From the NCBI GenBank assembly GCA_902518155.1, contig CABYFA010000001.1, forward strand, positions 7,942 through 71,941: 64,000 nt of DNA. The letters run 5' to 3'. Source of the DNA: an uncultured Pelagibacteraceae bacterium. GTDB taxonomy: Bacteria > Pseudomonadota > Alphaproteobacteria > Pelagibacterales > Pelagibacteraceae. Both the position numbers and the translations under genes were made by a program. Below, piece by piece: positions 9,159-25,966 of the stretch. Each line of letters opens with the position of its first letter. Position 1 is the stretch's first letter. The notes below the pieces were generated by a model. That model searched no databases. It was given only the letters and a program-made list of their open reading frames with translations, and was not told where the DNA came from.

Positions 9159-9235
9159 GGCGGGGTAGCTCAGTTGGTTAGAGCGCGGGACTCATAAGCC
9201 CGAGGTCAGTGGTTCGATCCCACTTCCCGCTACCA
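9159..9235 (+). tRNA. tRNA-Met (CAT), elongator type, encoded CCA
   Basis: Cloverleaf: acceptor GGCGGGG/TCCCGCT, D stem GCTC/GAGC, anticodon loop CTCATAA (CAT at 9193-9195), T arm AGTGG-TTCGATC-CCACT, ACCA end; paired 1-72 (G-U) argues against initiator. Confidence 0.93.
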
Positions 9236-25313: not shown

Positions 25314-25652
25314 TTATAGATCTTCATTATGCCAGGTAAAAAGATCTGCTTCATAAGGAATATTTTTAAATTTCAGTAATGCTTTATATTTTCTAAGCCT
25401 ATCCTCTTTTTTAGCACTTTTTAAGTATTCGAGAATTTGATCATAGGTTAGTCCTCTCAACTTATTTTTTTTTACATCTACATACTCCTCATATTCCATA
25501 CCTGCTATCGCATATCCCCTGTTAGGGTCTATGTGCTCTGCATAGCTGATAGTATCTTCATTTTCTTTTAGGATATCGTACCAATGAGCAACCTGATTTT
25601 TTTTATCAAAAAGATAATTTTTTCTGTAATCAAACAGTTTTAATTGATGCAT
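25314..25652 (-). CDS. Hypothetical protein (orphan)
   Basis: 112-aa ORF filling an otherwise empty interval; no family recognised. Confidence 0.6.
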   Translation of the reverse strand: MHQLKLFDYRKNYLFDKKNQVAHWYDILKENEDTISYAEHIDPNRGYAIAGMEYEEYVDVKKNKLRGLTYDQILEYLKSAKKEDRLRKYKALLKFKNIPYEADLFTWHNEDL

Positions 25653-25703
25653 ATTTTTGAAGTTTTAAAATAAAAAAATTAGTTAACAATTAATAATATA
25701 ATT

Positions 25704-25731
25704 TTGAATTATGTCTTAAGTATGATAGAAT
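25704..25731 (+). promoter_or_regulatory. Sigma70-type promoter upstream of the riboswitch
   Basis: TTGAAT (25704-25709), 16-nt spacer, extended -10 TGnTAGAAT (25723-25731); predicted start about 25737. Confidence 0.6.
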
Positions 25732-25736
25732 TAATT

Positions 25737-25794
25737 AGTCCTGATTTAGATCATAACTCTACTTGCTGGGACTTAAAACACAACGCTAAAGGAG
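25737..25794 (+). ncRNA. SAM-II-class riboswitch (H-type pseudoknot), translational
   Basis: P1 AGUCCU/GGGACU; loop GAUUUA; UUGC pairing with GC(U)AA; CUCU pairing with SD GGAG; A-rich L3 UAAAACACAAC; same motif order as the canonical SAM-II consensus. Confidence 0.85.
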
Positions 25795-25798
25795 AAAC

Positions 25799-25966
25799 AT
25801 GAAACTAAAAATACAATCAATTAAAAACTATTTTAAATTAAAAAAGAATAAGGGACTAGAACCATTGTTCTTTGAAAAAATAGGTGATCAAAAAACATCA
25901 AGAGATGAGATGCGTAAAAACATAATTAAAGCTTTAGAAAAGAATGGGTGGACTATAAAAAAATAA
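25799..25966 (+). CDS. Small basic hypothetical protein (55 aa), not in the ORF track
   Basis: SD AAAGGAG 4 nt before ATG; MKLKIQSIKNYFKLKKNKGLEPLFFEKIGDQKTSRDEMRKNIIKALEKNGWTIKK*. Confidence 0.75.
   Translation: MKLKIQSIKNYFKLKKNKGLEPLFFEKIGDQKTSRDEMRKNIIKALEKNGWTIKK

What the first reader, a model, noticed from the sequence alone, without database searches (positions are those of the whole stretch)
25704..25966. SAM-II-type riboswitch with its own promoter controlling an unannotated 55-aa protein
Seen: promoter TTGAAT-N16-(TG)nTAGAAT places the start at about 25737, the first base of P1. The RNA reads AGUCCU GAUUUA GAUCAUAA CUCUAC UUGC U GGGACU UAAAACACAAC GCUAAA GGAG, then 4 nt and ATG. 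P1 is AGUCCU/GGGACU, UUGC pairs with GC(U)AA with the bulged U, and CUCU pairs with the SD GGAG. Established: this is the motif order of SAM-II riboswitches, where SAM binding closes a pseudoknot over the SD and shuts off translation; they normally control methionine/SAM synthesis or transport genes. Inference: a microprotein made only when SAM is low, i.e. an unknown component of the sulfur/SAM starvation response. The ORF track misses it because it is under 60 aa.
Basis: partly seen in the sequence, partly recalled or inferred. Interest (0 to 1): 0.88.

Follow-up and report, generated by a model that had tools for sequence, protein, structure and literature searches.

The report
SAM riboswitch controlling orphan SAR11 microprotein
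A genuine SAM-II-type S-adenosylmethionine riboswitch, scoring too low for standard annotation, sits in front of a conserved 55-residue basic protein of unknown function. The pair travels as an accessory cassette in about a fifth of Pelagibacter (SAR11) genomes, so this orphan protein is probably made only when SAM runs low.

Summary
Positions 25737-25794 hold an H-type pseudoknot with every SAM-II hallmark:
- P1: AGUCCU/GGGACU.
- L1: GAUUUA.
- P2b: UUGC/GC(U)AA, with the bulged U.
- P2a: CUCU/GGAG, which covers the Shine-Dalgarno 4 nt before the ATG at 25799.

Rfam SAM_alpha hits it at 21.2 bits (E 0.008), below the 36-bit cut-off. The same genome's metX-metW SAM-II leader also falls below it, at 29.2 bits.

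More than 90 related loci were examined, down to about 40% protein identity. All but two weak, doubtful matches, and one contig cut off inside its leader, carry the aptamer directly upstream. In 201 Pelagibacter genomes the aptamer pattern occurs 42 times, and 39 of 39 full-length protein hits have it directly upstream. The other three pattern hits were not inspected. A reversed control pattern gave no hits.

The SAM-contacting bases are invariant. Aptamer diversity is 0.04, against 0.24 at third codon positions. P1 and P2a change only in pair-preserving ways.

The protein is real and under purifying selection. It has pI 10 and a confident two-helix model, but no family or fold match. It occurs only in Pelagibacter and one sister genus, sits in many different flexible gene neighbourhoods, and the window's genome has two copies.

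The RNA is a new member of a known class. The regulated protein family is uncharacterised. Ligand binding and expression remain untested.

The parts
25704..25731 (+). Sigma-70-type promoter: -35 TTGAAT (25704-09), 16-nt spacer, extended -10 TGaTAGAAT (25723-31). The predicted transcription start is about 25737.
   Evidence: Listed by the promoter scan. A TANNNT hexamer ends 6 nt before GUCC in 35 of 64 distinct, otherwise unrelated upstream contexts.
25737..25794 (+). SAM-II-class aptamer, an H-type pseudoknot, with the expression platform built in.
   Evidence: SAM_alpha RF00521 at 21.2 bits, E 0.008. Nearly invariant in 65 distinct loci. Nucleotide diversity 0.04, against 0.237 at codon position 3.
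25737..25742 (+). P1 5' strand AGUCCU. It pairs with 25768-25773.
   Evidence: G-C, U-A and C-G never vary. C-G changes to U-A (L031, L082), U.G to U-A or C-G, and U.G to G-C in the long-form paralogues (GUCCG/CGGAC).
25743..25748 (+). L1 GAUUUA. The three U (25745-47) are the triplex third strand, equivalent to U10-U12 of the SAM-II crystal structure.
   Evidence: ATTTA is invariant in all sequences aligned. The first base is G, or A in two loci. Roles are taken from PMC3303485 and PMC6061858.
25749..25756 (+). Variable linker of the P1 loop.
   Evidence: Length (5-9 nt) and sequence vary between loci, as expected for a non-contact loop.
25757..25766 (+). 5' strand of the pseudoknot: CUCU (P2a), AC, UUGC (P2b). 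U25764 and G25765 are equivalent to U21 and G22, which flank the SAM adenine.
   Evidence: Invariant except C25759 to U in 10 of 65 loci, which keeps a U.G pair with the Shine-Dalgarno.
25768..25773 (+). P1 3' strand GGGACU.
25774..25784 (+). L3: UAAAACACAAC, A-rich, matching UUAAAcAAgUC of the Rfam consensus.
   Evidence: Aligned to the SAM_alpha consensus. Diversity 0.066.
25785..25794 (+). 3' strand of the pseudoknot: GC, U25787 (bulged, equivalent to U44, which pairs with the SAM adenine), AA (A45/A46), A, then GGAG. GGAG is both the Shine-Dalgarno and the P2a 3' strand.
   Evidence: 54 of 55 loci are identical. The single change, GGAG to AGAG, turns U.G into U-A.
25799..25966 (+). Gene for a 55-aa basic protein (pI 10.2; 16 K+R, 6 D+E; no Cys or His), founding an uncharacterised Pelagibacter-specific family.
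   Evidence: 312 homologues and 91 clusters at 50% identity. Diversity at codon positions 1/2/3 is 0.085/0.039/0.237. AlphaFold2 pLDDT 90 with two helices. No Pfam, NCBIfam, PHROG, PADLOC or PDB match.

Best explanation
The locus is a compact, self-contained cassette of promoter, SAM-II-class riboswitch and microprotein gene.

Transcription starts at about 25737, the first base of P1. The 58-nt leader folds as an H-type pseudoknot. P1 forms regardless of ligand.

When SAM is abundant, it binds in the major-groove triplex formed by L1 (UUU), the UUGC strand and the GC-U-AA strand. That locks P2b and the adjoining 4-bp P2a helix (CUCU/GGAG). The Shine-Dalgarno GGAG, 4 nt before the AUG, is then buried and translation of the 55-aa ORF is blocked.

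When SAM falls, the weak pseudoknot opens, the Shine-Dalgarno is free and the protein is made.

What is shown: the sequence anatomy, its conservation and covariation, the exclusive linkage of RNA and gene, and purifying selection on the protein.

What is inferred: SAM as the ligand, translational OFF logic, and the transcription start. These come from identity of all contact positions and from analogy with the metX SAM-II and metY SAM-V structures.

The protein's role is unknown. My best guess is a small, basic, soluble factor that binds nucleic acid or a partner protein and acts only under SAM shortage. It is carried as an accessory gene in flexible genome islets rather than as part of the core methionine pathway.
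For: 1. Match to the Rfam model. SAM_alpha is the only riboswitch model that matches (21.2 bits, E 0.008). Relatives score 21.6-27.1 bits. The genome's leader of the metX-metW operon (the metX SAM-II is published for HTCC1062) scores only 29.2 bits, so the 36-bit cut-off is too strict for this AT-rich lineage (PMC2704228).
2. Contact positions. All positions that contact SAM in SAM-II and SAM-V are invariant in 65 + 26 aligned sequences: L1 UUU, the U-G of UUGC, and the bulged U and AA of GCUAAA (PMC3303485, PMC6061858).
3. Pairing. 96.7% of cells pair, against 45-65% in slid registers. Double changes occur in P1. Changes in P2a are only wobble-compatible. The long-form paralogues have GUCCG/CGGAC, and L082 has AGUCUU/AAGACU.
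4. Linkage. 39 of 39 full-length protein hits in 201 genomes have the aptamer directly upstream, 42 pattern hits in all, and none for the reversed control. Among the looser order-level matches, two weak ones have no aptamer. Only two copies exist in the window's genome, both before family members.
5. Selection. Aptamer diversity is 0.04, against 0.237 at codon position 3 and 0.565 upstream.
6. Platform. No terminator is present. The Shine-Dalgarno lies inside P2a, 4 nt from the AUG. The isolated P2 duplex is weak, -3.5 kcal/mol, which fits a ligand-dependent switch.
7. Promoter. A -10 element is positionally conserved.
Against: - The score is below Rfam's gathering threshold, and the default scan reports nothing.
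- The pseudoknot helices are almost invariant. Covariation rests on a few P1 pairs and on one-sided changes in P2a. The shuffle controls are only mildly exceeded (2-26 of 500).
- A nested-only fold is no better than shuffled sequence (z = 0.11). This is expected for a pseudoknot, but it gives no positive support.
- The downstream gene has no known link to methionine or SAM metabolism, which is the usual context of SAM-II.
Confidence: 0.85

Rival explanations
1. The fold is SAM-II-like but has been re-tuned to a different ligand, such as SAH, a SAM analogue or another sulfonium or adenosyl compound. That would fit its exclusive link to a non-methionine gene.
For: The gene context is atypical. 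The Rfam score is sub-threshold. Other riboswitch classes are known to contain subtypes with changed specificity (general knowledge).
Against: Every ligand-contact position of SAM-II is identical, including the U.A-U triple that reads the sulfonium charge and the bulged U that pairs with the adenine (PMC3303485, PMC6061858). The low score comes from the AT-rich P1 and P2a and the loop, not from the core (alignment). The metX leader of the same genome is also sub-threshold.
Confidence: 0.07
2. The conserved leader is not a metabolite sensor. It is instead a protein- or sRNA-binding site, for example autoregulation by the basic microprotein, or simply a conserved strong translation-initiation region. 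On this view the SAM-II resemblance is coincidental.
For: The protein is basic and could bind nucleic acid. Extreme sequence conservation with few compensatory changes can also arise from a protein-binding site.
Against: An end-to-end match of about 45 consensus positions in SAM-II order is very unlikely by chance (E 0.008 genome-wide; 0 hits for the reversed pattern). The changes seen are exactly those that keep P1 and P2a paired. The length-variable segment is precisely the SAM-II loop linker.
Confidence: 0.04
3. This rival concerns function only. The microprotein is a core, housekeeping part of the SAR11 sulfur/SAM starvation response, rather than an accessory or mobile function.
For: Control by a SAM riboswitch, as for metX, metY, bhmT and mmuM, which are induced under sulfur limitation (PMC5069961).
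Against: - It is present in only 36-39 of 201 genus genomes, 41 of 212 high-quality genomes of the order, and 2 of 11 genera.
- It sits in more than 40 different neighbourhoods.
- Empty TctA/glycosyltransferase junctions exist in sister genomes.
- Some genomes have two copies.
- The window genome's second copy lies beside a C5 DNA methylase and an MZB-domain gene.
Confidence: 0.25

Closest known systems
metX SAM-II riboswitch (Rfam RF00521 SAM_alpha; crystal structure 2QWY; translational subtype)
   Same: - The same order of elements: P1, L1 GAUUU, P2a/P2b 5' strand with CUUGC, P1 3' strand, A-rich L3, then CGCUAAAG and P2a.
- Identical ligand-contact bases.
- The Shine-Dalgarno lies in or next to P2a, so control is translational and no terminator is needed (PMC3303485, PMC6061858).
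   Different: - It scores 21 bits, below the 36-bit cut-off.
- P2a is 4 bp and consists of the Shine-Dalgarno itself.
- P1 is AU/GU-rich.
- It controls an orphan 55-aa protein rather than a methionine-pathway enzyme.
- It travels with that gene as an accessory cassette.
SAM-V riboswitch (RF01826; metY, bhmT and mmuM leaders of 'Ca. Pelagibacter ubique')
   Same: The same host lineage, the same binding-site architecture, and translational OFF control by Shine-Dalgarno occlusion (PMC6061858). The window's genome has a strong SAM-V (85.8 bits) before its metY.
   Different: The SAM-V model does not match this element even at E up to 10. This element has the SAM-II-type P1 and P2 lengths, C before UUGC where SAM-V has A, and a 4-bp P2a.
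SAR11_1163 and SAR11_1164 of HTCC1062 (small genes of unknown function induced in sulfur-limited stationary phase; PMC5069961)
   Same: Small, lineage-specific SAR11 genes of unknown function, tied to sulfur status, located in a hypervariable region, and suspected to lie behind a riboswitch-like leader.
   Different: Those genes have a 445-nt upstream spacer and a predicted membrane or lipoprotein character. The suspected leader there is of an unknown type. No homology was tested here because their sequences were not at hand. Here the leader is 62 nt and clearly of SAM-II type, and the protein is soluble and basic.
HicA toxin N-terminal helix-strand motif (PF07927; PADLOC HicA-like)
   Same: The C-terminal 15-21 residues (..LIKALEKNGWxIKK) resemble the first helix and strand of HicA (E 0.095 and 0.0018). 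Size and charge are similar.
   Different: The similarity is below every cut-off and covers a quarter of the protein. The rest of the HicA fold and its catalytic His are absent. Foldseek finds no dsRBD-like match. The window copy has no partner gene.

Membership tests
SAM-II riboswitch (Rfam RF00521, SAM_alpha) | Covariance-model score at or above the curated gathering score (36 bits) | tested here: not met
   21.2 bits, E 0.008. Relatives score 21.6-27.1 bits. The same genome's metX-metW leader also fails, at 29.2 bits, so the cut-off under-calls this AT-rich lineage.
SAM-II riboswitch (Rfam RF00521, SAM_alpha) | H-type pseudoknot: a P1 hairpin whose loop pairs with the 3' tail (P2b plus P2a) | tested here: met
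   14 pairs, 96.7% paired in 65 distinct loci, against 45-65% for slid registers. P1 shows double changes, and P2a shows only pair-preserving changes. Further compensation occurs in paralogues.
SAM-II riboswitch (Rfam RF00521, SAM_alpha) | Conserved ligand-pocket bases: L1 GAUUU (U10-U12), CUUGC (U21, G22), and GC-U-AA with an unpaired U (U44, A45, A46) | tested here: met
   All are present at 25743-47, 25762-66 and 25785-89 and invariant in all aligned sequences. Roles are taken from PMC3303485 and PMC6061858.
SAM-II riboswitch (Rfam RF00521, SAM_alpha) | A 3' P2a helix, the feature that Meyer et al. 2009 used to separate SAM-II from SAM-V | tested here: met
   CUCU/GGAG, 4 bp. C to U in 10 loci gives U.G, and G to A in 1 locus gives U-A. 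The criterion comes from PMC2704228.
SAM-II riboswitch (Rfam RF00521, SAM_alpha) | Location upstream of methionine or SAM biosynthesis or transport genes | tested here: not met
   The only gene downstream is the 55-aa orphan. The next gene is convergent. Neighbours differ from genome to genome.
SAM-II riboswitch (Rfam RF00521, SAM_alpha) | Selective binding of SAM over SAH, and SAM-dependent repression | not testable with these tools
   Needs in-line probing or ITC, and reporters.
SAM-V riboswitch (Rfam RF01826) | Covariance-model match | tested here: not met
   No SAM-V hit on 25640-25900 even at E up to 10. The genome search finds SAM-V only before metY.
HicA toxin (PF07927) | Profile match above the cut-off over the dsRBD-like domain | tested here: not met
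   13.3 bits against a 27-bit cut-off, covering residues 40-54 only. No structural match.

The most novel reading that the evidence does not exclude
The cassette may be a riboswitch-based alarm for SAM depletion, carried on flexible or defence-type islets of SAR11. On this reading a collapse of the SAM pool unlocks translation of a small basic effector. The collapse could come from phage SAM-degrading enzymes, or from starvation that leaves newly made DNA unmethylated beside resident restriction-modification genes. The effector would then slow growth or protect the cell, for example by restraining restriction, replication or translation. That would make a SAM riboswitch a sensor in genome-conflict biology rather than in methionine homeostasis.

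Circumstantial support:
- The distribution is accessory, with many contexts and sometimes two copies.
- DNA methylase, MZB-domain, helicase and methylase-fusion genes are neighbours in several loci.
- Long forms lie in operons of tiny ORFs.
- Other windows of this scan carry similar AI notes, which are unchecked.

Against:
- There is no PADLOC or phage match.
- Most neighbours are transporters.
- There is no toxicity evidence.
Probability: 0.12. Interest if true: 0.85.

Novelty: new member of a known kind. Interest (0 to 1): 0.6.

Why it matters
SAR11 is the most abundant bacterial group in the ocean. It has very few regulators and depends on external reduced sulfur, so SAM riboswitches are central to its physiology. 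Published surveys list only the metX and bhmT SAM-II elements and the SAM-V elements.

This work adds a third SAM-II lineage. Standard Rfam thresholds miss it. It is tied one to one to a protein family with no annotation, no detectable domain and no matching fold.

The riboswitch gives the orphan protein its first functional handle: it is expected to be expressed when SAM is scarce. It also gives a clean experimental entry point, a 58-nt RNA and a 55-aa protein. Two complete genomes carry the cassette, and their sizes match two cultured strains.

The work also shows that a complete promoter-sensor-gene unit can behave as a portable accessory cassette in a streamlined genome.

Tried and rejected
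- **Default Rfam scan of the window:** only a tRNA was reported.
- **Nested minimum-free-energy fold:** not better than shuffles. This is uninformative for a pseudoknot.
- **Third SAM_alpha hit in the genome (C8):** it lies inside a dehydrogenase-like coding region and was rejected as false.
- **Third hit of my own model R1 (C11):** it lies inside the ilvH-ilvC coding region and was rejected.
- **Protein function:** Pfam, NCBIfam, PHROGs and PADLOC gave only sub-threshold noise such as DUF7028, XisH, HicA and SspB. A profile search against PDB sequences gave nothing. Foldseek with two AlphaFold2 models against PDB, and with the short-form model against BFVD, gave nothing below E = 4.
- **Phage origin:** no match in 50,697 phage records or in IMG/VR.
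- **Conserved functional partner gene:** none found. Upstream and downstream neighbours fall into more than 60 clusters.
- **Ribbon-helix-helix (MetJ/Arc-like) reading of the N-terminal strand and helices:** considered and not supported, because a 17-residue loop separates the helices and there is no structural hit.
- **P0183, a 101-aa metagenomic relative with a methyltransferase motif-I N-terminus:** treated as a single chimeric call, not as evidence.
- **Poiata et al. 2009 (PMC2764483):** not held in the library.

Full report
**Organism and observation**

The window is part of a Pelagibacteraceae (SAR11) genome: 1.14 Mb in 30 contigs, with the window at C1:7942-71941. Related records are titled Pelagibacteraceae or 'Candidatus Pelagibacter'.

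- TTGAAT 25704-09, a 16-nt spacer, TG 25723-24, TAGAAT 25726-31.
- AGUCCU 25737-42, GAUUUA 25743-48, and an 8-nt linker.
- CUCU-AC-UUGC 25757-66, then U.
- GGGACU 25768-73, then UAAAACACAAC.
- GC-U-AA-A 25785-90, GGAG 25791-94, AAAC, and ATG at 25799.

The ORF has 55 codons and ends at 25966. A glycosyltransferase gene on the other strand ends 3 nt later. The ORF is therefore the only gene this leader can control.

**Is it a SAM-II riboswitch?**

At gathering thresholds Rfam reports only a tRNA in the window. With permissive filters, the only riboswitch model that matches 25640-25900 is SAM_alpha (RF00521). It aligns end to end at 21.2 bits, E 0.008, against a cut-off of 36 bits. It matches UGAUUU, CUUGC, the P1 stem, UUAAAcA and CGCUAAAG. 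SAM-V does not match.

A whole-genome search with RF00521 gives three hits:
- A leader at 29.2 bits. It precedes an alpha/beta-hydrolase gene followed by metW, that is, the metX-metW operon. A SAM-II riboswitch at metX is published for HTCC1062 (PMC2704228).
- This element.
- A false hit inside a coding region.

A SAM-II leader of the published metX type in the same genome therefore also fails the curated cut-off. The threshold under-calls this AT-rich lineage.

SAM-V (RF01826) hits strongly, at 85.8 bits, only in front of a Cys/Met PLP enzyme, metY.

**Comparative evidence for the RNA**

The 55-aa protein has 312 homologues in the 5.8-billion-protein collection. All are about 55-80 aa, and those with a name are 'hypothetical protein [Candidatus Pelagibacter]'. 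Seventy loci from species-representative Pelagibacteraceae genomes were fetched.

In 65 distinct sequences the 58-nt element is almost invariant, while the DNA upstream of it is unrelated from locus to locus. Nucleotide diversity is as follows:

| Region | Diversity |
|---|---|
| Aptamer | 0.04 |
| Codon position 1 | 0.085 |
| Codon position 2 | 0.039 |
| Codon position 3 | 0.237 |
| 40 nt upstream of the aptamer | 0.565 |

The RNA is thus under much stronger constraint than synonymous sites. The ORF shows the signature of a translated gene.

I counted the proposed structure, P1 plus the pseudoknot helices P2a and P2b. Of all cells, 96.7% are paired, against 45-65% in registers slid by 1-3 nt. 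Two P1 pairs have double changes. The only changes in P2a keep pairing with the Shine-Dalgarno: C to U in 10 loci, and G to A in 1 locus.

Diverged paralogues add covariation:
- Long forms of 77-78 aa have GUCCG/CGGAC in place of GUCCU/GGGAC.
- L082 has AGUCUU/AAGACU.
- L083 and L085 have U-A in place of U.G.

- The three U of L1.
- U21 and G22 of UUGC.
- The unpaired U44 that pairs with the SAM adenine.
- A45, which belongs to the U.A-U triple that reads the sulfonium charge.

The segment that varies in length and sequence is the loop linker.

**Linkage of RNA and gene**

An exact pattern for the aptamer core occurs 42 times in 39 of 201 genomes of the genus. The reversed control pattern never occurs. 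Comparing coordinates with the protein search of the same 201 genomes, 39 of 39 full-length protein hits have the aptamer immediately upstream. The three extra pattern hits are of the long-form P1 type, and I did not inspect their downstream genes.

Divergent members also carry it:
- an 87-aa form;
- a truncated 48-aa form;
- a 116-aa metagenomic form;
- the representative in a sister genus.

Three cases do not show it. The two weakest order-level protein matches, L099 (E 1.2e-6) and L102 (E 5.7e-5), had no aptamer match and were not examined further. The most divergent member, P0207, sits on a contig truncated inside a SAM-II-like leader. That leader lies further from the start codon and could not be checked.

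My own covariance model finds only two true copies in the window's genome. One is this element. The other is at C2:37403-37481, before a 77-aa paralogue. The aptamer lineage and the protein family are therefore a unit.

**Promoter and expression platform**

The promoter-like site by itself is not above chance, with 4 sites found against 7.2 expected in shuffles. Across 64 distinct, non-homologous upstream contexts, however, a TANNNT hexamer ends exactly 6 nt before the G of GUCC in 35 cases, against a background of about 3-4 per position. Many of these also have a TTGaca-like hexamer at the right distance. This supports a transcription start at, or one base before, P1.

No terminator is predicted. 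The Shine-Dalgarno is the 3' strand of P2a and lies 4 nt from the AUG. Control must therefore be translational, as in the metX SAM-II and the SAM-V riboswitches (PMC6061858). The pseudoknot duplex alone is weak, -3.5 kcal/mol, which fits ligand-dependent closure.

**The protein**

- It has pI 10.2, with 16 Lys+Arg against 6 Asp+Glu. It has no Cys and no His, and it is hydrophilic.
- The family has only 91 clusters at 50% identity among 1.84 billion representatives. All are short.
- Within the order it occurs in 2 of 11 genera and in 41 of 212 high-quality genomes.
- The conserved core is ..G(L/K)xP(L/I)FFEKIGDxxTSR(D/E)E..KNLIxxLEKNG(W/F)xIK.
- Long forms add an N-terminal K-rich segment with DPI(Y/F)KEGF.
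- AlphaFold2 gives a confident compact model with two helices and an ordered conserved loop. pLDDT is 90 for the short form and 82 for the long form.
- Foldseek finds nothing in the PDB with either model, or in BFVD with the short-form model. No sequence library matches.
- It is absent from phage collections.

**Genomic behaviour**

The cassette lies in many neighbourhoods. The immediate neighbours in 71 loci fall into more than 60 protein clusters. They include LivM/LivJ, DctM, TctA, a glycosyltransferase, a DMGDH-like enzyme, HIT, EamA, apt, hisF, a methylase fusion and a helicase.

At the window's own site, sister genomes have TctA and the glycosyltransferase directly convergent, with a gap of -4 to +6 nt. 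Others have different inserts of 421-1286 nt at the same junction. The cassette is thus one of several alternative accessory inserts at a flexible junction. In the window it is joined by the 112-aa ORF at 25314-25652. Some genomes have two copies.

The window genome's second copy is followed by overlapping tiny ORFs. It lies 0.6 kb from a C5 DNA methylase and an MZB-domain gene.

**Literature**

Published surveys of HTCC1062 list two SAM-II elements (metX, and bhmT in tandem) plus SAM-V (PMC2704228, PMC5069961). Full-text searches found no report of a SAM riboswitch before this protein family.

**Verdict**

The RNA is a real SAM-II-class riboswitch of the translational type. It is a new lineage of a known class, missed by curated thresholds. 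What is new is its exclusive partner, an uncharacterised and portable microprotein family in SAR11. Ligand, regulation and protein function remain to be shown experimentally.

Noticed in passing
L020:2669-2760, and likewise L021, L023, L026, L028, L035, L036, L041, L043, L057, L070; also L025, L045, L058/59, L046/61/67/68, L074, L083: Just 3' of the microprotein stop, many related loci carry short tandem direct repeats at about one helical turn apart, and the repeat sequence differs by lineage: TGGTCCA(C) x3 plus one inverted copy, GTAGTGAATTT x2, GCGTACAAGT x2, and AGAGCAGAGCCCT x2. They could be protein-binding sites or a structured 3' element. The window copy has none.
   Followed up: partly
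L020:2815-2891, L035, L026, L043, L070; window 9159-9232: In at least five loci scanned, and probably all eleven that share the same downstream sequence, the cassette lies about 150 nt upstream of a tRNA-Met(CAT) gene that has its own promoter. A near-identical tRNA, differing at two anticodon-stem positions, lies at 9159-9232 in the window, 16 kb away. Another locus (L072) lies next to tmRNA. tRNA and tmRNA genes are classic island integration sites.
   Followed up: partly
G000:C2:37403-37710 (L078:1904-2210) and flanks: This is a second copy in the same genome: a SAM-II element with P1 GUCCG/CGGAC before a 77-aa long form. It is followed by an overlapping 55-64-aa acidic ORF (MATIKEVYELL...), a 58-aa basic ORF on the other strand, a C5 cytosine DNA methylase and an MZB (DUF1998-type) Zn-binding domain gene.
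   Followed up: partly
L004:1440-1567 (G000:C1, about 191677-191804): The metY leader seems to hold a SAM-II-like element (UUGCC GAUUUGAUCCUAUUGC GGGCA UAAACU GCUAAAAGGG) directly upstream of the 85.8-bit SAM-V. That would be a tandem arrangement like the one published for bhmT. It was read by eye only.
   Followed up: no
window 25314-25652 (- strand): A 112-aa ORF diverges from the cassette. It has no Pfam match and a weak PADLOC Cas12g-profile hit (E 2.5e-5 over about 90 residues), which is probably spurious. It is present in only 6 of 71 related loci, so it is itself an accessory insert at the TctA/glycosyltransferase junction.
   Followed up: partly
L087/L088/L090 (about 2105-2523 in locus coordinates): A 61-aa Cys-rich (zinc-ribbon-like) ORF lies near the long-form cassette. 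It ends in ..WDKIIKIFEKNGYKVELKS, the same helix-strand motif that ends the microprotein family. This may be a recurring small module in SAR11 islet genes.
   Followed up: no
P0183 (metagenomic protein, 101 aa): One relative has an N-terminus with a class-I methyltransferase motif I (LLDLGCGSG) fused in frame just before ..IFYEKIGD. It is probably a chimeric or rearranged call, and it is a single sequence.
   Followed up: no
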